Shown here piece by piece: positions 10,180 to 32,000 of a DNA stretch of 32,000 nt. Position 1 is the stretch's first letter. Each line of letters starts with the position of its first letter. The notes beneath the pieces are model-generated. The model was not told the DNA's origin, made no database searches, and saw only the letters and a list, made by a program, of their open reading frames with translations. The stretch covers positions 390,001-422,000 of the forward strand of contig LYOS01000001.1 of NCBI GenBank assembly GCA_001766815.1. The letters run 5' to 3'. Origin of the DNA: Candidatus Syntropharchaeum caldarium. Its GTDB lineage: Archaea; Halobacteriota; Syntropharchaeia; Syntropharchaeales; Syntropharchaeaceae. The position numbers and the translations under genes are program-made.

Positions 10180-10876
10180 AAACGGTCACATCTTCAACTT
10201 CAGCCTCTCTAAAGCCTCGCTTTCGATGCTGGCACGCCTCACACCTTCCACAGTGAAGATCCCCACTCAAATAACACGACCATGTTAAACCAAGTGGCGC
10301 ACCTACCTCAACCCCTTTCCTCACGATCTCACGCTTGAAGTATCCAATAAGCGGCGCCCTCACCGTAATCGGATCTGTAAAACTTGCAACAGCATGTTCA
10401 AGCACATCATTGAACCGCTCAAGGAATGTCGGGGTGTTGTCAGGGTATGATTGAGCCTCTTCAGCATTGAAACCGACAAATACAGTGGATGCCCCGATTG
10501 ACTCGGCATAGGCGGATGCAACAGCAAGAAGAACCAGATTCCTGCATGGAACCCATGTATCAGGTGTGGATGTACCATCAAGCTCAACCCGCTCATCAAT
10601 CGGTATCTCGATCGATCTATCTGTGAGGGCAGACCCCCCAAAAGCCCCAAGAAATCCAAGATCAACGAAGACCAACTCCTTTGCCCCAAGCTCCTCACTG
10701 ATTCGCTTTACCGCCTCGATCTCCCTCTCTTCTGCGATCTGTCCATAGCTTGCATGGAGGATATGGAGTTCATACCCCTCTCGCGCTGCAATTGTAGCAG
10801 CAACGGTTGAATCAAGCCCTCCTGAGCAGACACAGACTGCTTTTTCACCTCTGACAGTACAAGTCATGCTTCTCAT
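10166..10876 (-). CDS. queC: 7-cyano-7-deazaguanine synthase
   Basis: 236 aa with the PP-loop SGGLDS and the C-terminal zinc motif CYLSGDLHCGRCEAC. Confidence 0.85.
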   Translation of the reverse strand: MRSMTCTVRGEKAVCVCSGGLDSTVAATIAAREGYELHILHASYGQIAEEREIEAVKRISEELGAKELVFVDLGFLGAFGGSALTDRSIEIPIDERVELDGTSTPDTWVPCRNLVLLAVASAYAESIGASTVFVGFNAEEAQSYPDNTPTFLERFNDVLEHAVASFTDPITVRAPLIGYFKREIVRKGVEVGAPLGLTWSCYLSGDLHCGRCEACQHRKRGFREAEVEDVTVYERK

Positions 10877-11613
10877 GAAATCCGACCTGTATAAATTCTC
10901 ATCCCATGCTGGCTCACAAACCCGATGATCGTCATCCCTGTTATCTTTCCTATCTCAACTGCGAGGGATGTTACAGCGCCTTTTGAGAGGATGATTGGAA
11001 TCTCAACTGCTACACACTTCAGAACCATATCTGAGGAGATTCTACCAGTTACTCCCACAAATGTCTCTTTGAAGTCGATATTCTCACCGATGGCATACCC
11101 TATCACCTTATCGAGTGCATTGTGTCGCCCTATATCATCAGCTATTACGATCTCACCCTCTTTATTGAAAAGTCCGACTGAGTGAACCCCTCTTGTTCTT
11201 CTGTGAATCTCTGAACCCAGCACCCTGCTCATGCTTTCTGATGCCATTCTCCAATCGATCGTAAATTCGGTATTTATTCTTGGAAGTTTGGATTCGTCCA
11301 GAAATGATGAACCACCGCCACACCCGCTTAAAACAACTTTTTTAAGGTTAACAATTCCAAGTGGATCTTTTAAAAGCACTTTCGCAATATTCTCCTCAAT
11401 CTGGATCGATTCTATCTCATCACATGCTTTTACAACCTTTTCTGCAAAGAGATGCCCGATCACAAACTCTTTTATCATGGAAGGGCTTATCATAGCGGTC
11501 TGAACCCACCGTCCATTGACGTACAGTGCAAGTGGCATCTCCTCGACAACCTCTTCCACTGCTTCGCTGGATTCACCATCAGTCATCCTGATGACTGTGA
11601 TCTCCTCTATCAC
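10873..11613 (-). CDS. fdhD: FdhD-family sulfurtransferase (formate or formylmethanofuran dehydrogenase accessory protein)
   Basis: 246 aa with the family motif DDIGRHNALDK and a Cys loop SGCGGGS. It overlaps queC by 4 nt and directly abuts the cysteine desulfurase stop codon. Confidence 0.8.
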   Translation of the reverse strand: MIEEITVIRMTDGESSEAVEEVVEEMPLALYVNGRWVQTAMISPSMIKEFVIGHLFAEKVVKACDEIESIQIEENIAKVLLKDPLGIVNLKKVVLSGCGGGSSFLDESKLPRINTEFTIDWRMASESMSRVLGSEIHRRTRGVHSVGLFNKEGEIVIADDIGRHNALDKVIGYAIGENIDFKETFVGVTGRISSDMVLKCVAVEIPIILSKGAVTSLAVEIGKITGMTIIGFVSQHGMRIYTGRIS

Positions 11614-19805: not shown

Positions 19806-21800
19806 ATGCAAGGTCATCGCCCACACGTTGTAACCTGTGGACTTCCGTATGCAAACGGACCCGCTCACATCGGACACTTACGGACGTACGTGCCAGCAGA
19901 TGTCTATGTACGGATGCTCAGAAAACTCGGCGAGGAGTTAATATTCATCTGTGGCTCTGATACGCACGGAACGCCGATCGTTGTCAATGCAGAGAGCCTG
20001 AAGATAACGCCAAAAGAGCTTGTTGAAAAGTATCACCACTACTTTGATGCAACATTCAAGAAGCTTGGGGTCATATTCGATAACTATGGGAGCACAGACT
20101 CTGATTACAATCACAGAAGAACGCAAATAATCACAAAGGAGCTCATCAATCGTGGTTATGTCTATCCAAAGTCGATCGAGCTTGCATACTGCCCCACATG
20201 CCAGATTTTTCTTCCAGATCGTTATGTTGAGGGCAGATGCCCGTACTGCGGCTCGGTAGCCAGGGGAGATGAGTGTGACCAGGGATGTGGGCGTCATCTT
20301 GAGCCAGGTGAGATCCTTGATCCACTCTGTAAGGTCTGTGGAATGAAGGCTGAGTTCAGAGTGCAGGAGCATTACTTCTTCAAACTCTCTGAGTTCAGAT
20401 CGTTTCTGCTTAAATTTCTCGAAGAACTTCGTGGAACATCAAACGCACGGAACTATGCCCTTGGATGGGTCAAAGGTGAACTTAAGGACTGGTGTATCAC
20501 ACGAAACCTCGACTGGGGTGTGAAGTTTCCTGGAAGAGATGATCTTGTCGTCTATGTCTGGGTTGATGCACCGATTGGATACATTTCATCGACCGAAGAA
20601 TGGGCAGATAGAGTTGGTGCGAACTGGGAGGATTACTGGAAAGGTGACGCCAGGATCACGCACTTTATCGGTAGTGATATCATCTACCACCACTGCATAT
20701 TCTGGCCTGCAATGCTTAAAGGCGCGGGGTATGCGCTTCCATCGGCGGTAATCGCATCTGGAATGGTCAAGATCGATGATAAGACCTTCTCAAAGTCACG
20801 GGGCTACGTCGTATGGGTCGATGAGTACCTTGAAAACGGTTTTCATCCAGATCTCCTGCGTTACTATCTTGTAAGCTATACATCCCATACTAAGGAGCTC
20901 AACTTCTCGTGGCAGGTCTTTCAGGAGAAGTGCAACAATGAGCTTTTGGCAGTACTTGGTAATCTCGCATACCGTACGCTCCTCTTCACGTTCAAGAACT
21001 TCGGTGAGGTGCCCGAGGGTGAGATCGAAGAGGAGGTTATAGAAGAGATCAAAGGAACGATCGAGCTTGTAAAGGCTTCAATAGAGGAGTATGAGCCGAA
21101 ACGCATGGTTGATTCTGTGATGGCACTTGCAAATTTTGGAAATGCTTATTTCCAGTCACACAAACCATGGGAGCTTGTAAAGAGTGATAAGGTGGCGTGT
21201 GGCAGGGTACTGAAAAACGCTCTTCAGATTGTCAAGGCACTTGCCATCCTCTTTGAGCCTGTGATGCCATCAAAGATGGAACTACTCTGGGAGGATCTTG
21301 GGATGGAAGAGGATATCCATAAGGTGTCTGTCACAGCAGCGTTGACCCCGCTCAATGAGGGAATTAAGCTTGGCAAGCCGAGATTACTCTTTGATCGGGT
21401 CGAGGATGATATAATAGCACGTATGCAGGAGATACTGCACCAACGGATTGAAGGGGGTGGAGACGAGATGGTCGAAAAAACTGATATGATCACCTATGAT
21501 GAGTTTGAGAGGCTTGACATCAGGGTTGGTAGAGTGGTTGAAGCAATAGCGGTTGAAGGCTCAAAGAAGCTCATAAAACTGATGGTTGATCTTGGTGAAG
21601 ATAAACCACGTCAGATCGTTGCAGGCATCGCAGAGCTTTACAGTGCAGAGGAACTTGTGAACAAAGAGATCATTGTACTTGCAAACCTCGAACCTGCAAC
21701 GATCTTTGGGGTCGAGTCCAGGGGTATGCTACTTGCAGCAGGCGAAGGAGTGCTTCTTGTGCCTGATAGAGAGGTTAAACCAGGAGATCGGATCAGGTGA
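19806..21800 (+). CDS. metG: Methionine--tRNA ligase with C-terminal tRNA-binding (Trbp111-like) domain
   Basis: 664 aa with the HIGH-type motif ([12 protein letters not shown]), a zinc knuckle (CPTC..CPYC), the KMSKS-type motif (FSKSRG), and a C-terminal [20 protein letters not shown] segment. Confidence 0.9.
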
Positions 21801-26524: not shown

Positions 26525-27190
26525 ATGCATCTCAATACCCTCTACCTCACCCTGCGATCCACAACTCCAATAGAGGGGGATGCATCGCATTTAAGGGGCT
26601 TCTTTGCAAGCAGGTTCAACGAATACGCCCTTCTCCACCAGCACGTTGATGTTGATAAACTTCTGTACCGTTATCCGCGAATCCAGTACAAGATAATCGA
26701 TGGCGATCCGCTTGTTCTTGGTATAGAAGAGGGGGCAGAGGTATTGAAGGAGATTTATGATAAGTACGAGGAGATACGGATAAAAGATACGGTATATACG
26801 ATCGTTGAACGTGGAATAACGCTGAGAGCGGAGGAATTTGGAGTTTCGAATAAGATTCTTGGTTATACCTTTAAGACCCCGTGGATTGCGCTTAATCAGG
26901 AGAACTATGAGAGGTATCTGAGATCGAAGAGGCGAGAACGGCGTGAGATCCTGCGGCGAATTCTCGTTGGAAATATCCTATCTGCATCAAAGGGGCTTGA
27001 TTATGTTGTACTTGATGAGATAAAGCTTGAGATTGGTGAGATGAAGCCTGTTAAGTGTAAGATCAAGAAAACGCCATTTATGGGGTTTGTGGGTGAATTT
27101 CTCGTGAACTTTGCGATTCCTGAGTACATGGGGCTTGGTAAGTCGGTATCGAGGGGGTTTGGGGCGGTGGTTGGTGCATGCAACTCGTAA
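26525..27190 (+). CDS. cas6: Cas6-like RAMP endoribonuclease (orphan; no CRISPR array in window)
   Basis: 221 aa. The C-terminal glycine-rich loop [13 protein letters not shown] has the GxGxxxxxGxG RAMP/Cas6 signature. The N-terminal [26 protein letters not shown] resembles Cas6-family (PF10040-type) proteins. The 3' end overlaps the ATG of a cas1 remnant. Confidence 0.55.
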
Positions 27191-27407
27191 TCAACACTCG
27201 CGGATCATACCTCAAGAAAGGTCGTTTGCGGTTGAGAATAACATCGAGATCGTCTTCATAGACCAGAATGGCAACCCTTACGGGAGAATCTGGCACTCAA
27301 AGCCTGGAAGCACGACATTGATCAGAAGAAAGCAGCTTGAGATCTATGATAAAGATGATGGGTTGAAGCTTGCAAAGGCATGGTCTTTAAAGAAGATCGA
27401 GAATCAA
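27178..27407 (+). pseudogene. cas1: cas1 remnant: N-terminal about 17 codons, then an out-of-frame internal deletion, then about 59 codons, then truncation
   Basis: The frame from ATG 27178 reads [15 protein letters not shown], a typical Cas1 N-terminus, and stops at 27259-27261. A second frame from about 27231 reads [53 protein letters not shown]. This matches the Cas1 N-terminal beta domain and the start of the helical domain. The catalytic C-terminal two thirds are absent. Confidence 0.75.
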
Positions 27408-27410
27408 AAG

Positions 27411-27527
27411 GAGGATATTGACACCGCGATGAAACTCGGATACAACCACCCGATGGGTCCACTTGAGCTGACAGATCTCATAGGGCTTGATACAATCCTC
27501 AAGATAGAGCAGGGCTTTATGGACGAA
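27411..27527 (+). pseudogene. Fragment of a 3-hydroxyacyl-CoA dehydrogenase C-terminal domain, fused in frame to the cas1 remnant
   Basis: [30 protein letters not shown] closely follows the conserved Hbd/3HCDH_C motif (DID.AMKLG.NHPMGPL.L.D.IGLD). No NAD-binding N-terminal domain is present anywhere nearby. Confidence 0.7.
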
Positions 27528-27565
27528 AGACCGGAAGAGAATCTATTTCCTCTCCTTCTTATTTT

Positions 27566-27898
27566 TCACAATAGAGAATCTTCCTCCTCGATTATCCTGA
27601 TCCCTGCACGCGTAGCATAGAAGTACGCACCTCCAAGAACCTTCTCATAGGGGTATCGCCCTGCAAATGTCTGGATGACGAGAAGATCTCCCCCATTCTC
27701 GGATCGCTGAATTATTACACAGATCACATAGGGCTTCAGGAAGGCCGAGGTTACAAGAATATCCTTTCTCGGTTTTGTGATGTAGTAATAACCTTCAAAC
27801 CTCTCCTCGATCTCTGAGAGCGATCTTGCCTCGTCAAAGACCCACCTGAATGCAAGCGCATTCTTTATCGGAAGCCGTTTTTTGATCTCATCTATCAT
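27566..27898 (-). CDS. Hypothetical small protein (downstream gene of an overlapping two-gene pair)
   Basis: 110 aa counted from the internal Met ([21 protein letters not shown]..). Its ATG overlaps the stop of the upstream 98-aa gene by 11 nt. GATC content is host-like. I recognised no motif. Confidence 0.45.
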
Positions 27899-28284: not shown

Positions 28285-28524
28285 AAACCTCTCGGTGATA
28301 AGCTTTCAGTATGAGGCGTAAAGCACGCCTCATACACCCATGTCCAACCTTCGGTTGGACTTGAGCACCTCTTTGAGGTGCTCCTTTCGCAATGCCTTTA
28401 TCAAAGGCATCTGCGGTTGGACTATCGCTCTTTGAGCGAGTTTTCCTGCCTTCGGCAGGACTGGTCCGGCTGAAAAGCCTACTATTTTGCCGTATGGGCA
28501 TATGGTGTGCTTGCATGGACACAG
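28285..28524 (+). ncRNA. Candidate structured non-coding RNA (unclassified): eight or more back-to-back hairpins
   Basis: Consecutive hairpins are at 28309-28335 (10-bp stem), 28342-28360, 28363-28383 (9 bp), 28389-28414, 28425-28439, 28446-28459, 28468-28479 (GGCU-GAAA-AGCC) and 28490-28505. The GNRA and CUUCG loops read correctly only on the plus strand. The ends are uncertain. Confidence 0.4.
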
Positions 28525-28924
28525 AAGATGGATTAATCAGGGATATTCACCACATTTTCCTTCAATCAGATAGGAAAAAACAGGTGTGATGGATGGGGAT
28601 TGAGGGAAAATCCTGTATCAGCGGCATTTATTATTCATGAGGGGGTCTGGTTTAGGTTTTGACCGGTGTGGGGAGGGGGTAAATCAAAATTCTCTTGAGT
28701 ATATCAGGAGATGTTAAGGCATAAAAGTTCAAAAACAACAGAAAATATATACGCACGTGAGTAGAGATATAGGCAAGGTTAAAAGTCCACTGGATAGTTT
28801 ACAGATAAACGGAGGAGAAGATGATTGAAGATTGAAAAGTTCAACCAGAGGGATGTATGTGCGAACTTGAGTTCGGATATATCGACAAATTGTAGGGATA
28901 TGCGAAGTGGGTTTGGGTATAAGT

Positions 28925-28938
28925 TGTTATACGACATT
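28925..28938 (+). repeat. attC-like 3' half-site (TGTTATacGACATT) immediately upstream of the first cassette
   Basis: It matches the 3' end of element A (TGTTATgtGACATT, 29807-29820) at 12 of 14 positions. Confidence 0.4.
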
Positions 28939-28986
28939 TTACTTGGCTATATTTGGTATATAAACCTGTGAATATGGAGGAATATA

Positions 28987-29667
28987 ATGAATTTGATAGA
29001 ATATCTCAAAAAGATTAACAAAGAGGAGTGCCCAGAAGAATGCATTTTTAAACAAAAAAGTCCTAAAGTTGCTATAATTCCTCCGCCTAATGAAATATTA
29101 GGAATTATTGTCTCAAGGGATCCAACATTTGATTGGATAAAGAATTATGAAGAAGCGTGGAAAGAGTACAATGAAACAGTAAACGTTGAGAATCTACGTA
29201 AGAAACTTTTTGAGGCAATTCCTAAATCCCTAATTGAGAGGATTACTACGTATAAAGATAAATTAAATAGCACAGAAGAAGATATTGTTTGTCTTCATAA
29301 AATGATATATAAAAATGTATATTGGACACATCTACACAAATGCTTTACGAACAAACGTGATAAAGAGTATGAATTTGATAATAAGAATGCCATAATATGT
29401 GGAGAGAGATGGTTAGCAAAAGAGCTTGAAATCGCAACAAATACGAAGACAAAATTTATAATCGCTCTTGGTAGGGACGTTCAGAGATTTGTTTGTGAAT
29501 GGCGAGAGGATTATTGTGAAAACAGAGATATAAAGATTATTTACCTTCCTCATCCTTCACCAGCAAATGTTGGAAAGTATTGGTCATGGTGTCCTAAAGA
29601 AGAAAGAAATAAGGTGAGGCTAACGAAACGGATAAATAATTTATTACAACTATGTAAGGGAGGTTAG
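28987..29667 (+). CDS. Divergent uracil-DNA glycosylase-superfamily protein
   Basis: 226 aa with GGAGG 7 nt upstream of the ATG. The motif-A-like GIIVSRDPTF (29101-29130) compares to family-1 GQDPYH. The motif-B-like LPHPSPANVG (HPSPAN at 29551-29568) compares to HPSPLS. The gene is very AT-rich. Confidence 0.5.
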   Translation: MNLIEYLKKINKEECPEECIFKQKSPKVAIIPPPNEILGIIVSRDPTFDWIKNYEEAWKEYNETVNVENLRKKLFEAIPKSLIERITTYKDKLNSTEEDIVCLHKMIYKNVYWTHLHKCFTNKRDKEYEFDNKNAIICGERWLAKELEIATNTKTKFIIALGRDVQRFVCEWREDYCENRDIKIIYLPHPSPANVGKYWSWCPKEERNKVRLTKRINNLLQLCKGG

Positions 29668-29730
29668 AAATTAACGCCAAGCAAAACGCTTCACCACTAT
29701 CGCGGTTCGCTCTCACTTCGTTCGAGTCGT

Positions 29731-29812
29731 ATAACACAGTATACACGGCTCACTCCGTTCGCCCAAATTTCGGCTTCGCCGAAACTTCGTATATGCTGGA
29801 AACGTATGTTAT
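29731..29812 (+). repeat. attC-like imperfect inverted-repeat element A
   Basis: It starts with ATAACA and ends with the complementary TGTTAT. The inner boxes CAGTATAC and GTATA(TG)CTG pair with each other. There is a central hairpin TTTCGGC-TTC-GCCGAAA. The element is homologous to element B over nearly its full length. Confidence 0.55.
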
Positions 29813-29844
29813 GTGACATTGCGTCTATGTCATGAGAGATTAAT

Positions 29845-30474
29845 ATGAGAAAGCTAACTAAGGCAGTTCGTGGAACTCTTCAGCTCGCTCGGCGAAAGAT
29901 AATAACCAATGCATGGCAATTGCTTCGAACTGCTGTTAAATTGTCTGAGCAGCAACAATACGCCATAGCCTGTTTTTTAGCTATGACAGCTATTGAAGAA
30001 ATAGGAAAATTATTTATTTTACAGCTTGTTCAGGGAGATGTGTTTAAGGAACTTGGCGTTAAATTAGAACCACCACCTGACCTAAACACAAAAGAACTTA
30101 ATAAGTTCCTTCGGAACCATCTTGATAAAGCTTTAGAGGCAGCAGCGTCCTCTCTTTACATCAACGCTGGTGCTGACCGGCGACATGGCGTACATCCTAT
30201 AAGTGGGATACATTGTACATCGGGGGTGGTTTTGCTAACTCGTTCCGGTCGCTGGATGAGTATTCGAAATAGCTGTCTGTATACCGAAGTTGACTTTGCC
30301 ACAAACTCAACCTCTTCTCCAAATGATTTTATAACTCGTGAACATGCATACTATTTCATTTGCATGGGATTTGAGGTGTTAGCTGAACAGGCAGAGGCAG
30401 GTTTTGGTTCCGGTCTCGAGGGGCGTGATGTAAGTAAAAGCATTCAGTTCTGGCAAGATCGCCTTAAAGATTGA
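29845..30474 (+). CDS. AbiV-like HEPN-domain protein (putative abortive-infection or defence protein)
   Basis: 209 aa. The pattern YAIACFLAMTAIEEIGK, then RNHLDKA, then IRNSCLYTEVDF follows the AbiV-family arrangement (A..lA..alEE.gK, H..K, lYvd), matched from memory of the family. Confidence 0.45.
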   Translation: MRKLTKAVRGTLQLARRKIITNAWQLLRTAVKLSEQQQYAIACFLAMTAIEEIGKLFILQLVQGDVFKELGVKLEPPPDLNTKELNKFLRNHLDKALEAAASSLYINAGADRRHGVHPISGIHCTSGVVLLTRSGRWMSIRNSCLYTEVDFATNSTSSPNDFITREHAYYFICMGFEVLAEQAEAGFGSGLEGRDVSKSIQFWQDRLKD

Positions 30475-30482
30475 AAAGATTT

Positions 30483-30626
30483 ATGGAACAATGGTCAAGT
30501 ACTGTCGATCTTGATCAACTGGACTTCCTTGCCAATCCTGAGCCGTTGCGAGAGGAAGCGGAGAAGCGTGAGAGTAAGAATGTTGAGAAAAAGGAGAAAA
30601 TGTTTGTACGGCGCAACCTCACATAA
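30483..30626 (+). CDS. Possible 47-aa small ORF between the AbiV-like gene and element B
   Basis: It runs from ATG to TAA and encodes MEQWSSTVDLDQLDFLANPEPLREEAEKRESKNVEKKEKMFVRRNLT. The stop codon lies inside the ATAAC box of element B. There is no clear Shine-Dalgarno sequence. It may instead be a frameshifted C-terminal extension of the AbiV-like gene. Confidence 0.2.
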   Translation: MEQWSSTVDLDQLDFLANPEPLREEAEKRESKNVEKKEKMFVRRNLT

Positions 30627-30697
30627 CACAGGCTATACGGCTCGTTTCACTCGCCCAAATCGGCTATCGCCGACTTCGTATATCCTGAAGCCGTTAT
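30623..30697 (+). repeat. attC-like imperfect inverted-repeat element B
   Basis: The outer boxes are ATAAC and GTTAT. The inner boxes CAGGCTATAC and GTATATCCTG pair at 9 of 10 positions. The central hairpin is TCGGC-TATC-GCCGA. It shares the blocks ATAACACAG, TATAC, GGCTC, TCGCCCAAA, TCGGCT, TCGCCGA and CTTCGTATAT with element A. Confidence 0.55.
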
Positions 30698-30746
30698 CGG
30701 AAATTGCTTAAAGCTAAACATACAAAATAAATAGCGAGGTTAAAAT

Positions 30747-30941
30747 ATGGAAGTGAAGGAATTAATTTTAAAGGAAATCGAAAAGATTCCTGAACAGTAT
30801 CTCACAGAGATATTGGATTTTATACGCTTTTTAGAGACAAAAGCGCTGGAAGAAAGGATGGGGACTGCAATCATAAGCGAAACATCCCTTAAGAAAGATT
30901 GGCTAAAACCTGAGGAGGATGAAGCTTGGCAAGATTTGTAA
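30747..30941 (+). CDS. Type II antitoxin, DUF2281-like (partner of MazF)
   Basis: 64 aa. LKEIEKIPEQYLTEILDFIRFLETKA matches the DUF2281 antitoxin pattern. GAGGT lies upstream. The gene overlaps the toxin gene. Confidence 0.65.
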   Translation: MEVKELILKEIEKIPEQYLTEILDFIRFLETKALEERMGTAIISETSLKKDWLKPEEDEAWQDL

Positions 30942-31258
30942 AGGGGGATGTGGTGGTTGTACCCTTTCCATTTTCGGATTTAACCCATGCCAAGAGACGA
31001 CCTGCTTTAGTTGTGGCTGAATTAGAAGGAGACGACCTGATTCTATGCCAGATAACCAGTCAGCGGATTAAAGATAAATACGCAGTTCCAATTGAGGACA
31101 ATGACTTTGAAACAGGGGCACTCAAGCAGAGAAGTAATGTGCGACCAAATCGTATATTTACAGCGGACCGTCACATAATCTTATACCGTATTGGTCATCT
31201 CAAACCTGATAAGGCTAACGAGGTGATCGAGAGAATAGTAGATATTTTACGACAATGA
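30926..31258 (+). CDS. mazF: MazF/PemK-family endoribonuclease toxin
   Basis: 110 aa. KGDVVVVPFPFSDLTHAKRRPALVV..LILCQITS..VRPNRIFTAD is the classic MazF/PemK pattern. The TTG start overlaps the antitoxin gene by 16 nt. Confidence 0.8.
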   Translation: MARFVKGDVVVVPFPFSDLTHAKRRPALVVAELEGDDLILCQITSQRIKDKYAVPIEDNDFETGALKQRSNVRPNRIFTADRHIILYRIGHLKPDKANEVIERIVDILRQ

Positions 31259-31273
31259 ATTACGCAACTTTCG

Positions 31274-31380
31274 ATAACAGAGCGTATCTGGCTACAGTGC
31301 TTCGCACTTGCCTTTCGGGTCATATAAACAAGCGGGTACGCGGTTCGCTTCGCAACCCCTTCGCATACCCCGTCAGCCGA
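31274..31380 (+). repeat. attC-like element C (conserved ends, divergent centre)
   Basis: The 5' end GATAACAGAGCGTATCTGGCT resembles CATAACACAGGCTATACGGCT of element B. The 3' end CTTCGCATACCCCGTCAGCCGAAATT resembles CTTCGTATATCCTGAAGCCGTTATCGGAAATT. The centre differs and contains its own small hairpins. GTCAG replaces GTTAT. Confidence 0.4.
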
Positions 31381-31426
31381 AATTTTTTATAGTCTTATTT
31401 AAATACTCTCATGGAGGTGTTCGCCT

Positions 31427-31624
31427 GTGGAAACAAAAATAAAGGATCTAACTATCGAAGAATTACGATCATTGATATCAGACACTGTCCGAGAAGCTAT
31501 GAATGATTCAATCGAAGATATGCTGGCACTTTCAAGTGACGAATACCTAAAATCCATTGAAGAAGCGAGAAACGATTACAAAACAGGTAGAGTGAGATCT
31601 ATCGAGGAAATCTTCGATGTATAA
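31427..31624 (+). CDS. Putative type II antitoxin (partner of the RelE/ParE-like toxin)
   Basis: 65 aa with a GTG start and GGAGGTG 7 nt upstream. It is acidic and helical, with a C-terminal ..EEARNDYKTGRVRSIEEIF typical of small archaeal antitoxins. It overlaps the toxin start by 8 nt. Confidence 0.55.
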   Translation: METKIKDLTIEELRSLISDTVREAMNDSIEDMLALSSDEYLKSIEEARNDYKTGRVRSIEEIFDV

Positions 31625-31863
31625 GGTGGTATTCACCCAGCGAGCATTGAAAGATCTTGAAAACATTGATAAAGAGGTTCGTAATAGAATTGCTACAAAA
31701 CTTAAAGAATGCACGAAAGAGCCTCTAATATACGCTCGAAAGTTATCAAACCCAAAGATAGGTACATATCGATTTAGAGTGGGTGATTACCGTGTAATAT
31801 TTGATATTGACAAAAAACATAGTGATTTTGCGAATTGGACACAGAAAGAGCATTTACAAATGA
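31617..31863 (+). pseudogene. relE: RelE/ParE-family toxin interrupted by a 1-nt frameshift
   Basis: Frame 1 reads MYKVVFTQRALKDLENIDKEVRNRIATKLKE..YRFRVGDYRVIFDIDKK. The expected C-terminus IVILRIGHRKSIYK followed by a stop is in the +1 frame (31819-31863), immediately after the run GACAAAAAAC (31809-31818). Confidence 0.75.
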
Positions 31864-31865
31864 TA

Positions 31866-31991
31866 AAACTCCGCTTCACAGGAAACTACTACACCCGTGA
31901 CCGTGTCGAGCGCCTGAAACGCGATCTTGAGAAGGTGGGGCTGGGCGGCAGGGTGGATATGTTCATGATGTCAGCGAGCTATGGGGCGTGA
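31866..31991 (+). pseudogene. Fragment resembling the C-terminal part of an MvhD/FlpD-type domain
   Basis: TGNYYTRDRVERLKRDLEKVGLGGRVDMFMMSASYGA follows the MvhD pattern (CHY..GN..A..R...L...L...G....R.....SASEG). It lacks the upstream Cys-rich part and stops early. This segment returns to GC-rich, host-like composition and lies at the window edge. Confidence 0.4.
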
Positions 31992-32000
31992 ATTTGCAGA

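What the first reader, a model, noticed from the sequence alone, without database searches (positions are those of the whole stretch)
28921..31863. Integron-like gene-cassette array with attC-like boundary elements in an archaeal chromosome (no integrase in window)
Four compact, co-oriented gene units are each followed by a 75-110 nt non-coding element. The units are a UDG-like gene, an AbiV-like gene, a MazEF-like pair and a RelBE-like pair. Elements A (29731-29812) and B (30623-30697) align over almost their whole length. Each starts with ATAAC and ends with the complementary GTTAT. Each has a second pair of complementary inner boxes (CAG-TATAC with GTATA-CTG). Each also carries a central hairpin that is preserved although its stem length differs (TTTCGGC/GCCGAAA versus TCGGC/GCCGA). 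Element C keeps the two ends but has a different centre. A matching 3' half-site (TGTTATacGACATT) sits just upstream of the first cassette. This is the R''-L''-variable-L'-R' layout of integron attC sites, with the AAC and GTT cores oriented correctly relative to the ORFs (ORF, then AAC...GTT). Arrays rich in toxin-antitoxin and defence genes are typical of sedentary chromosomal integrons. No tyrosine recombinase is visible, so this would be a CALIN-type array, or the integrase lies outside the window. To my knowledge, integrons in Archaea have been reported only recently, from metagenome-assembled genomes. An array next to housekeeping genes of a methanogen or ANME would therefore be notable.
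Basis: partly seen in the sequence, partly recalled or inferred. Interest (0 to 1): 0.8.

Follow-up and report, generated by a model that had tools for sequence, protein, structure and literature searches.

The report
Decayed integron-like cassette array, unusual recombinase
The window holds a real but decaying integron-style array of mobile defence and toxin-antitoxin gene cassettes in the butane-oxidising archaeon Candidatus Syntrophoarchaeum caldarius, and it belongs to a large family, shared by Bacteria and Archaea, whose recombinase lacks the domain that defines classical integron integrases.

Summary
Elements A (29731-29812) and B (30623-30697) are homologous structured repeats. They occur nowhere else in the 32 kb.

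They belong to a family I found in about 70 bacterial and archaeal genomes. There it forms co-oriented arrays downstream of one conserved tyrosine recombinase and a conserved attI-like site.

Cassette logic is shown directly. In 34 of 38 adjacent element pairs, the bases after one element's GTT complement the bases before the next element's AAC. This places the crossover at the core, as in integrons.

A dead 3' stub of the recombinase gene lies at 28682-28828. The attI-like site lies at 28829-28928, directly upstream of cassette 1.

Element C is a fusion of two sites. Cassette 4 has a frameshifted RelE, no end site, and abuts an mvhD fragment.

The recombinase is closest to VchIntIA and XerA but lacks the IntI-specific insertion. 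It carries a HARP-like N-terminal domain. The sites lack extrahelical bases and have a conserved 17-21 nt loop.

Archaeal integrons are already known (2022). This recombinase and site type appears undescribed. I file it as a new variant of a known kind.

The parts
28682..28828 (+). 3' stub (last ~48 codons) of the array's tyrosine recombinase gene. It is dead: one in-frame stop, a frameshift and a 3-nt deletion. Stop codon TGA at 28826-28828.
   Evidence: tblastn: 59% identity to Methanophagales recombinases P0049/P0062 in one frame and 75-85% in a second frame. 79% nucleotide identity to an equivalent stub in Ca. Argoarchaeum (L023). DNA alignment with intact genes.
28829..28928 (+). attI-like site: imperfect palindrome IR1 (~28855-28883), CAAATTG spacer motif (28886-28892), imperfect palindrome IR2 (~28896-28922), then the crossover core GTT (28926-28928).
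   Evidence: The same architecture follows the stop codon of intact recombinase genes in dozens of loci. The first cassette's R'' flank complements GTT plus 9 nt here (10 of 12 positions) and in 11 of 16 loci at 10 or more of 12.
28927..29808 (+). Cassette 1: UDG-superfamily gene (28987-29667) plus its end site A (R'' AAC 29733-29735, R' G 29808; conserved 5' extension 29705-29729).
   Evidence: Pfam UDG E=4e-8. Covariance model 86.4 bits. The start GTTATACGAC is the reverse complement of GTCGTATAAC at the cassette end (I5).
29809..30693 (+). Cassette 2: HEPN/AbiV gene (29845-30474) and a 47-aa ORF (30483-30626) whose stop lies in R'', plus end site B (AAC 30625-30627, R' G 30693).
   Evidence: Pfam HEPN_AbiV E=4e-21. 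Covariance model 89.2 bits. Start and end are complementary at 15 of 17 positions (I8).
30694..31293 (+). Cassette 3: DUF2281 antitoxin (30747-30941) and MazF toxin (30926-31258), plus C1, the 5' half of its end site only (R'' AAC 31276-31278; homology to intact sites stops at ~31293).
   Evidence: Pfam. 77% nucleotide identity over 696 nt to L013:3561-4254 and 76% to L075. 76-80% amino-acid identity in L121. Alignment with the intact L013 and L075 sites. Start and end are complementary at 16 of 19 positions (I6).
31294..31392 (+). C2: remnant of another cassette's end site (5' extension, ATAAAC, L''/L' stem, no central hairpin, degenerate R'). It is fused to C1, probably by a deletion.
   Evidence: Weak covariance-model and nhmmer hits (11 bits, E=1.9). 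The L''/L' pairing appears in the DNA fold. MAFFT aligns it with A and B.
31393..31863 (+). Cassette 4, truncated: RelB-like antitoxin (31427-31624) and a ParE/RelE toxin (31617-31863) frameshifted at the A-run 31812-31817. There is no end site, only GATAAAAC (31862-31869).
   Evidence: Pfam ParE_toxin E=3e-10. Shifting the frame restores ...IVILRIGHRKSIYK* (read; translation). A RelE homologue is a first cassette in L092.
31864..31991 (+). Right boundary: C-terminal fragment of an MvhD/FlpD-type gene. It is not part of the array and marks where the array was cut.
   Evidence: Pfam FlpD, E=0.0019, profile positions 69-105 of 123 (weak).

Best explanation
Window 28682-31863 is a decayed, sedentary integron-type gene-capture platform in the chromosome of Ca. 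Syntrophoarchaeum caldarius.

Layout: recombinase gene (now a 3' stub), then an attI-like site, then four co-oriented cassettes. The cassettes are UDG-family, AbiV/HEPN, DUF2281-MazF and RelB-RelE.

Each complete cassette ends in an ~80-nt structured site with these parts:
- R'' ...ATAAC.
- An 11-bp L''/L' stem.
- A conserved 17-21-nt one-sided loop, GGCTCACTYCGTTCGCCC.
- AAAT plus a variable hairpin.
- A 5-nt one-sided bulge.
- R' GTTAT.

Shown:
- The sites are conserved, covarying structures.
- They occur only in co-oriented arrays on the strand of, and downstream of, one recombinase family.
- Cassette ends are swapped at the invariant AAC/GTT core, so a cassette is a unit that can circularise.
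- One of these cassettes occurs in other arrays.

Inferred mechanism: the recombinase inserts circular cassettes at the GTT of attI and excises them by site-by-site recombination. The folded bottom strand of the site is the likely substrate. Its R and L stems would mimic a two-arm Xer-type core site, with 10-11-bp arms around a ~6-nt central region. The single strand exchange would be resolved by replication, as for integron attC and for CTX-phage with XerCD.

The recombinase lacks the integron I2 insertion and the sites lack extrahelical bases. Strand and structure recognition must therefore rest on something else. Candidates are the conserved loop, the bulge and the HARP-like N-terminal domain.

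In this genome the platform is inactive in cis. The recombinase is dead, one site is fused, one site is lost and RelE is frameshifted.
For: Family and structure:
About 70 loci hold full-length copies, and 27 loci hold 2-5 co-oriented copies.
- 88.9% of cells pair. Seven of 11 L-stem pairs and 6 of 9 hairpin pairs show compensatory changes. No shuffle out of 500 reached the observed values.

Cassette logic:
- 34 of 38 adjacent pairs favour the flank of the same cassette over the flank of the same element; 1 is worse and 3 tie (5.5 versus 3.5 of 8 positions).
- The attI GTT plus 9 nt complements the first site in 11 of 16 loci.
- The longest ORF lies on the array strand in 46 cassettes against 1.

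Link to the recombinase:
- Of 28 covariance-model hits in 80 recombinase-centred metagenome loci, all 28 are on its strand and 26 are downstream.
- A stub plus attI is present in the window.

Cassette mobility: MazEF cassette homologues occur in L013, L075 and L121 with different neighbours.

Bottom strand:
- It folds more stably in 119 of 133 sites, p=3.5e-19.
- The invariant top-strand A.C mismatches become G.T wobbles in the bottom strand.

Recombinase:
- NF040815 238-254 bits, above its cutoff of 220. TIGR02249 220-231 bits, below its cutoff of 265.
- Best PDB hit 2a3v, with 25 aa in place of 67 aa of IntI4.
- A constant 40-46-aa deletion in about 85 genes.
- Foldseek: 2a3v and XerA 5hxy are practically tied.
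- HARP hints.
Against: - No recombination was observed. Everything is comparative.
- I could not run the IntegronFinder attC model.
- The crossover can only be placed within or next to the invariant AAC/GTT core, not at G|TT exactly.
- Only 13 of 40 recombinase loci with at least 1.2 kb of downstream sequence show sites with my family-specific model. The link is therefore not universal, or other site types exist.
- The bottom-strand preference is a modest energy difference (-14.7 versus -13.1 kcal/mol).
- The HARP similarity is below Pfam's threshold.
The PDB alignment gives the same gap independently.
- I could not read beyond base 32000, nor search the rest of the genome for an intact recombinase.
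Confidence: 0.8

Rival explanations
1. This is an ordinary integron CALIN. The elements are canonical attC sites served by a classical IntI encoded elsewhere, and the neighbouring Xer/IntI-like recombinase is incidental.
For: AAC/GTT cores, the R''-L''...L'-R' layout and crossover at the core all match integrons. CALINs are common in Archaea, including ANME-1. NCBI names the recombinase family 'site-specific tyrosine recombinase/integron integrase'.
Against: - No I2-bearing IntI was found in about 165 loci.
- The sites sit on the strand of, and downstream of, this recombinase in 28 of 28 and 26 of 28 cases.
- The attI after its stop codon supplies the 5' end of the first cassette.
- The sites lack extrahelical bases and a two-sided spacer, and show no similarity to nine IntI1-validated archaeal attCs.
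- Ghaly's IntegronFinder screen flagged MAG JAFNKG01 on contig 33 but not contig 77. Contig 77 is L070, which holds two of these sites.
Confidence: 0.1
2. These are MITE- or REP-like palindromic repeats, or intrinsic terminators, that merely sit between genes. There is no cassette mobility.
For: Short, structured, intergenic repeats placed after stop codons. A weak extra match lies at 28323-28362.
Against: - Only 2-3 copies occur in the 32 kb, all within the array.
- They are always co-oriented in arrays.
- The flank after each repeat pairs with the next repeat, not with its own (34 versus 1). A transposed inverted-repeat element would show the opposite.
- The same cassette occurs in four arrays.
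- The bottom strand, which is antisense to the mRNA, folds better.
Confidence: 0.03
3. This is an IMEX-like system. The units are tiny integrative elements that hijack the host's housekeeping XerA at a dif-like site, and there is no dedicated platform.
For: The recombinase passes the XerA equivalog model. The attI palindromes and the 10-11-bp stems look like Xer binding arms (the comparison with dif rests on my own knowledge).
Against: - The recombinase occurs in Bacteria as well as Archaea at 65-82% identity, often as stubs or tandem copies (L097).
- It has an extra N-terminal domain absent from the XerA structures.
- It is always physically linked to the arrays. This is not the behaviour of a single-copy chromosome-dimer resolvase.
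Confidence: 0.05

Closest known systems
Integrons (IntI / attI / attC), including the archaeal integrons and CALINs of Ghaly et al. 2022 (PMC9668308)
   Same: - A recombinase next to an attI site, followed by a co-oriented array of short cassettes.
- Each cassette ends in an imperfect-palindrome site with AAC and GTT cores.
- The crossover is at the core, so R'' matches the cassette's own 5' end.
- Cargo is rich in toxin-antitoxin and defence genes.
- The bottom strand is apparently the structured one.
- The recombinase is co-oriented with attI just downstream, as reported for archaeal and Treponema-type integrons.
   Different: - The recombinase lacks the IntI-specific insertion (I2 helix) and fails TIGR02249. 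It has a ~70-aa HARP-like N-terminal domain.
- The sites have an uninterrupted 11-bp L stem without extrahelical bases, a one-sided 5-nt bulge in place of a two-sided spacer, and a 17-21-nt loop conserved across phyla and domains.
- The attI is two palindromes around CCAAAWTGG, not the L/R simple site plus DR1/DR2.
XerA/XerCD-dif recombination and CTX-phage-type IMEX integration
   Same: The catalytic core is Xer-like (NF040815 passed; XerA structures are top fold hits). The folded single strand would rebuild a two-arm core site, as CTX-phage attP(+) does for XerCD. The binding-arm-sized stems are 10-11 bp.
   Different: The recombinase is dedicated, multi-copy, horizontally spread and linked to the arrays. 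The units are arrays of gene cassettes rather than phage or plasmid genomes. It has an extra N-terminal domain.
pdif modules of Acinetobacter plasmids
   Same: Small gene modules bounded by Xer-type sites and shuffled among replicons.
   Different: pdif modules are flanked by inversely oriented double-stranded dif-like sites and use host XerCD. Here the sites are directly oriented hairpin sites with an adjacent attI and their own recombinase.
Cre/loxP
   Same: A tyrosine recombinase. The L' region AACTTCGTATA nearly equals the loxP arm ATAACTTCGTATA (loxP sequence from my memory).
   Different: Only a sequence resemblance. There is no 34-bp double-stranded site, no phage P1 context, and Cre is a distant fold hit.

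Membership tests
Integron (sensu Mazel 2006; IntegronFinder criteria) | The integrase is a tyrosine recombinase carrying the IntI-specific additional domain (I2 helix) near patch III. | tested here: not met
   TIGR02249 scores 220-231 bits, below its cutoff of 265, in two stretches. In the VchIntIA (2a3v) alignment, 25 aa replace 67 aa. About 85 genes show a 40-46-aa deletion. The AlphaFold model has no extra helix. The window holds only a 3' stub.
Integron (sensu Mazel 2006; IntegronFinder criteria) | attC sites: R''(..AAC)-L''...L'-R'(GTT..) imperfect inverted repeats, 57-141 nt, placed 3' of each ORF. | tested here: met
   A is 82 nt and B is 75 nt, ATAAC...GTTAT. Family covariation. AAC in 88 and GTT in 87 of 112 sites.
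Integron (sensu Mazel 2006; IntegronFinder criteria) | The folded attC has a two-sided unpaired central spacer and extrahelical bases in the L box. | tested here: not met
   The family consensus has an 11-bp L stem, 94.6% paired, with a one-sided 5-nt bulge. Nine IntI1-validated archaeal attCs fold with two-sided spacers and single bulged bases. Copy A alone has a 2-nt bulge.
Integron (sensu Mazel 2006; IntegronFinder criteria) | Recombination at the core (G|TT), so that each cassette's 5' end derives from its own attC. | tested here: met
   34 of 38 adjacent pairs, including 3 of 3 in the window. The attI junction shows it in 11 of 16 loci. The exact phosphodiester bond is not resolvable.
Integron (sensu Mazel 2006; IntegronFinder criteria) | An attI insertion site adjacent to the integrase gene. 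| tested here: met
   A conserved region lies 80-125 nt after the stop codon and ends in GTTA. Its architecture differs from attI1.
Integron (sensu Mazel 2006; IntegronFinder criteria) | A significant hit with the IntegronFinder attC covariance model. | not testable with these tools
   The model is not available. Rfam has no hit. Indirect evidence: the IntegronFinder screen in PMC9668308 did not list L070's contig or any Syntrophoarchaeum genome.
Integron (sensu Mazel 2006; IntegronFinder criteria) | Integrase-dependent excision and insertion of cassettes. | not testable with these tools
   Only comparative evidence of mobility: the MazEF cassette occurs in four arrays.
CALIN (cluster of attC sites lacking an integrase) | At least two attC sites less than 4 kb apart with no functional intI nearby. 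| tested here: met
   The cores of A and B are 817 nt apart and the recombinase is reduced to a dead stub. This holds only if these sites are accepted as attC.
XerA (archaeal chromosome-dimer resolvase, NF040815) | Scores above the curated equivalog cutoff. | tested here: met
   238-254 bits against a cutoff of 220.
XerA (archaeal chromosome-dimer resolvase, NF040815) | A single-copy housekeeping gene acting at one dif site, about 280-300 aa, with no extra domain. | tested here: not met
   It is found in Bacteria and Archaea at 65-82% identity. Stubs and tandem copies occur. It is ~345 aa with an N-terminal domain. It is linked to cassette arrays.
MITE / REP-type dispersed repeat | Copies scattered independently of gene-unit boundaries, with terminal inverted repeats belonging to the same copy. 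| tested here: not met

The most novel reading that the evidence does not exclude
The window is a decayed member of an undescribed, very widespread class of gene-capture platforms shared by Bacteria and Archaea. These are integron analogues, or a sister or ancestral lineage. Their IntI/XerA-like recombinase never acquired the I2 helix. Instead it would use a HARP-like N-terminal domain and a conserved loop and bulge in the hairpin site to recognise folded single-stranded cassette sites. Sites that are 92-94% identical occur in an archaeon, a Spirochaetales MAG and an Aminicenantes MAG, which suggests ongoing cross-domain cassette traffic.
Probability: 0.45. Interest if true: 0.85.

Novelty: new variant of a known kind. 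Interest (0 to 1): 0.72.

Why it matters
Current thinking (Escudero et al. 2016 and 2020, listed) holds that integron integrases became able to recombine folded single-stranded attC sites by acquiring the I2 helix. A large natural family that shows integron cassette logic with hairpin sites but has an I2-less recombinase would be one of two things: an independent solution, or a living relative of the pre-integron state. Either way, that evolutionary question becomes directly testable.

IntegronFinder-style surveys require the IntI-specific domain for the integrase, and indirect evidence suggests their attC model misses this site family, so they may undercount gene-capture platforms in anoxic-sediment Bacteria and Archaea (ANME-1, alkane oxidisers, Bathyarchaeia, DPANN, candidate phyla).

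The near-identical sites in both domains point to a route for cross-domain transfer of defence and toxin-antitoxin genes.

For this genome the finding is modest: a dead platform with four cassettes.

Tried and rejected
- Rfam gathering scan of the window: no hits.
- Looking up window proteins to extend the contig past 32000: only short Logan contigs that break at the elements were reachable, or nothing was on record. I therefore could not see what follows the mvhD fragment or search the genome for an intact recombinase.
- Searching papers for the element's sequence motifs returned only unrelated primers.
- Five further literature searches found no description of this recombinase and site type.
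- Locating R'' and R' in divergent copies with mafft --add was unreliable. I replaced it with covariance-model alignments.
- I aligned the nine IntI1-validated archaeal attCs to build a surrogate canonical attC model. I dropped the idea because MAFFT misaligned the 3' halves and no independent positive control was available. I compared folds and nhmmer results instead.
- Foldseek on the whole recombinase model could not test the HARP-like domain, because the recombinase core dominates the hit list.
- A search with the repaired stub peptide found only other stubs and no Syntrophoarchaeum full-length copy.
- Rejected ideas: a CRISPR-related repeat (no array in the window); a tandem repeat artefact; a viral origin (only one IMG/VR contig holds a copy).

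Full report
**What is in the window**

The 32-kb window is archaeal chromosome. Its MetRS (19806-21800) is 100% identical to that of Candidatus Syntrophoarchaeum caldarius. The flanking genes are housekeeping: POR, cysteine desulfurase, exonuclease VII, DUF460 and an orphan cas6b. G+C falls from about 46% to 36-42% over the last 3 kb.

- UDG superfamily, 28987-29667.
- HEPN_AbiV, 29845-30474.
- DUF2281 antitoxin with PemK/MazF, 30747-31258.
- A RelB-like gene with ParE/RelE, from 31427.

RelE is frameshifted at the A-run 31812-31817. Shifting the frame restores ...IVILRIGHRKSIYK and the stop at 31861-31863. From 31864 the sequence is a C-terminal mvhD/FlpD fragment (weak).

**The repeats**

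A (29731-29812) and B (30623-30697) are homologous, at 79% and 82% identity in two blocks. nhmmer, and later a covariance model run with filters off, find only these two in the 32 kb, plus a weak third at 31319-31384. The elements are therefore not scattered.

The start of each cassette (GTTAT plus 10-14 nt) is the reverse complement of the sequence that ends in ATAAC at the end of the same cassette (I5, I8 and I6). The variable dinucleotide after GTTAT is AC, GT and CG in turn. It agrees with the cassette's own R'' in 3 of 3 cases and not with the neighbour's.

**A widespread family**

I scanned one genome per GTDB species with an exact pattern from the centre shared by A and B. I expected about 5 chance matches.
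- About 57 loci are bacterial MAGs or genomes: WOR-3, Aminicenantes, Chloroflexota, Desulfobacterota, Nitrospirota, Spirochaetales and others.
- 23 loci are archaeal: six Methanophagales/ANME-1, Argoarchaeum, Ethanoperedens, Methanoxibalbensis, Bathyarchaeia, Altiarchaeales, Nanoarchaeota, Thermoplasmata and others.
- About 70 loci hold full-length homologues, and 27 hold 2-5 co-oriented copies spaced 0.3-3.6 kb apart.
- A is 92-94% identical to copies in a Methanophagales MAG, a Spirochaetales MAG and an Aminicenantes MAG.

**Structure**

A 39-sequence alignment (A2) gives the following consensus:
- R'' (..TAAC), then 1 nt.
- An 11-bp L'' stem.
- An almost invariant GGCTCACTYCGTTCGCCC.
- AAAT plus a variable hairpin.
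- ACTT, then L'.
- A 5-nt bulge, then R' (GTTA..).

Pair counts: 88.9% of cells pair, against 77% in shuffles and 21-41% for slid partners. Seven of 11 L-stem pairs and 6 of 9 hairpin pairs show changes on both sides. No shuffle out of 500 reached the observed covariation.

Two invariant top-strand A.C oppositions become G.T wobbles in the bottom strand. They are alignment columns 42/67, and position 8 of the R extension. With DNA parameters the bottom strand folds more stably in 119 of 133 distinct sites (p=3.5e-19).

**Cassette logic, tested across genomes**

Covariance model R1 gave 112 sites in 84 sources. I took 38 adjacent pairs and compared the 8 nt after the GTT of site i with two candidates. 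They match the reverse complement of the 8 nt before the AAC of site i+1 (the same cassette) better than that of site i in 34 pairs. They match worse in 1 pair and tie in 3 (5.5 versus 3.5 of 8 positions).

This is the integron signature of a crossover at the core. It is the opposite of what a self-contained inverted-repeat element would show.

Across 49 cassettes, the longest ORF lies on the array strand in 46 against 1. The median cassette length is 1259 nt.

The window's MazEF cassette recurs at 76-80% identity in L013, L075 and L121, with different neighbours. Comparison with the intact L013 site shows that element C is the 5' half of cassette 3's site fused to a second, degenerate site.

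**The recombinase, and a stub of it in the window**

tblastn with IntI1 (sequence typed from my memory), and then with the hits themselves, found a tyrosine recombinase upstream of arrays and on the same strand as them in L012, L057, L024, L035, L059, L073, L023 and L014. It also found one in the window itself at 28682-28828. The window copy reads LEYIRRC*GIKVQKQQKIYTHVSRDIGKVKSPLDSL..*, and a second frame reads QEMLRHKSSKTTE. It is a frameshifted stub of the last ~48 codons.

Intact genes are about 345 aa. The family has more than 7,400 members at E<1e-20, with 65-82% identity between bacterial and archaeal copies. One copy is in the cultured Thermodesulforhabdus norvegica (L086).

Classification of the recombinase:
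- It passes NCBIfam NF040815 ('site-specific tyrosine recombinase/integron integrase') and fails TIGR02249, the integron integrase model.
- The best solved relative is VchIntIA (2a3v, E=2e-46). The alignment is in two pieces, with 25 residues where IntI4 has 67.
- About 85 genes in my loci show the same 40-46-residue gap, and none matches IntI1 residues 175-265.
- An AlphaFold model (pLDDT 77) shows no extra helix there and has a beta-beta-alpha-beta-beta-alpha N-terminal domain.
- Foldseek practically ties VchIntIA and XerA.
- The N-terminal domain weakly matches HARP: Pfam E=7.6e-5, below threshold, and SMARCAL1 HARP 4o66 at E=0.0023.

**attI**

After the recombinase stop codon, loci share a fixed layout. 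It consists of palindrome 1, CCAAAWTGG, palindrome 2, then (A/G)AGTTA..GAAAT. The window keeps this at 28829-28928 and aligns with intact loci such as L104 and L088. In 11 of 16 loci, the R'' flank of the first detected site complements the attI GTT plus 9 nt at 10 or more of 12 positions.

**Association test**

A metagenome scan with the recombinase gave 80 loci. All 28 R1 hits in them are on the recombinase strand and 26 are downstream. Thirteen of the 40 loci with at least 1.2 kb of downstream sequence have such sites. Many contigs stop right after the gene.

**Comparison with the known**

Ghaly et al. 2022 (PMC9668308) reported integrons in 75 archaeal MAGs, mostly CALINs. These include ANME-1 and Methanoperedens, and attI lies just downstream of intI. 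An archaeal integron is therefore not new.

Several points separate this family from theirs:
- Their IntIs carry the IntI-specific domain.
- Their nine tested attCs have no nhmmer similarity to this family. They fold with two-sided spacers and bulged bases, whereas this family has a one-sided bulge, no extrahelical bases and a conserved loop.
- Their IntegronFinder output lists MAG JAFNKG01 on contig 33 but not contig 77. Contig 77 is L070, which holds two R1 sites. No Syntrophoarchaeum or Argoarchaeum genome appears. This suggests, but does not prove, that the standard model misses these sites.
- I found no paper describing this recombinase and site type.
- Smyshlyaev et al. 2021 note that the insertion is 'not fully conserved' in their integron-like recombinase subgroup.

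**Verdict**

The finding is real, and it is a decayed integron-type platform. It works like an integron. It fails two defining membership tests: the IntI-specific domain, and the canonical attC fine structure. I therefore file it as a new variant of a known kind.

Shown: the structure, the arrays, the cassette-boundary logic, the linkage to the recombinase and attI, and the decay in this genome.

Inferred: bottom-strand single-stranded recombination, the Xer-like two-arm mimicry, and the roles of the HARP-like domain and the loop.

Noticed in passing
window 27111-27620 (+): A chimeric ORF joins a Cas1 fragment (Pfam positions 51-116 of 283) to a C-terminal fragment of 3-hydroxyacyl-CoA dehydrogenase. 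Together with the unassigned ORFs up to 28600, the 1.5 kb between cas6b and the recombinase stub looks like a junkyard of gene fragments.
   Followed up: partly
window 26525-27190 (+): An intact Cas6b gene with no other cas genes except the cas1 fragment, and no CRISPR array anywhere in the window.
   Followed up: partly
window 31864-31991 (+): A C-terminal fragment of an MvhD/FlpD-type protein (weak Pfam hit) abuts the frameshifted RelE. The array's right end was cut by a rearrangement.
   Followed up: partly
window 28323-28362 (+): A marginal covariance-model match (13.6 bits, E=0.32) to the conserved loop plus hairpin of the site family, upstream of the recombinase stub. It may be a relic of an older site.
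   Followed up: no
window 29705-29729; about 40% of family members: A conserved 5' extension, CTYGCCCTCACTTCGTTCGGGTC, lies upstream of R''. It repeats the CTCACTTCGTTCG box of the site's centre. Its function is unknown.
   Followed up: no
window 29783-29793 and 30672-30682; family L' region: AACTTCGTATA in the L' arm is nearly the loxP arm ATAACTTCGTATA (loxP sequence from memory). The attI palindromes carry the same TATACG-type motif, which is probably the recombinase's binding motif.
   Followed up: no
L173 (Ca. Ethanoperedens), L073, L023, L024, L014; proteins P0241-P0260: Many platforms survive only as a 38-81-codon 3' stub of the recombinase plus attI plus cassettes, often directly after a housekeeping gene. 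The truncation points vary. A cassette promoter inside the 3' end of the gene is one possible reason.
   Followed up: partly
L097:6365-7177 and 10346-11158: Two full recombinase genes lie in tandem on one contig, each with sites of the family around it. These are two platforms in series.
   Followed up: no
L001-L005 (Logan contigs of SRR3679449 and SRR3669912): Independent assemblies of the same organism break inside element A (29768-29792), about 70 nt after B (30769) and about 70 nt after cas6b. This would fit repeats or variant junctions at these points in the enrichment-culture metagenomes.
   Followed up: no
window 30483-30626 (+): A 47-aa ORF after AbiV, called as a gene in the Logan contigs. 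Its stop codon TAA is the TAA of the R'' ATAAC of element B.
   Followed up: no
L172 (IMGVR_UViG_3300033141_001955) 13-94: One copy of the site family lies on a contig that IMG/VR classes as viral. No recombinase is present in the stored piece.
   Followed up: partly
plasmids NZ_CP041688 (Chryseobacterium), NZ_CP0776xx (Clostridium estertheticum): More distant relatives of the recombinase (42-48% identity), some with the N-terminal domain, sit on plasmids of cultured bacteria. They are annotated 'site-specific tyrosine recombinase/integron integrase'. I did not examine their surroundings.
   Followed up: no
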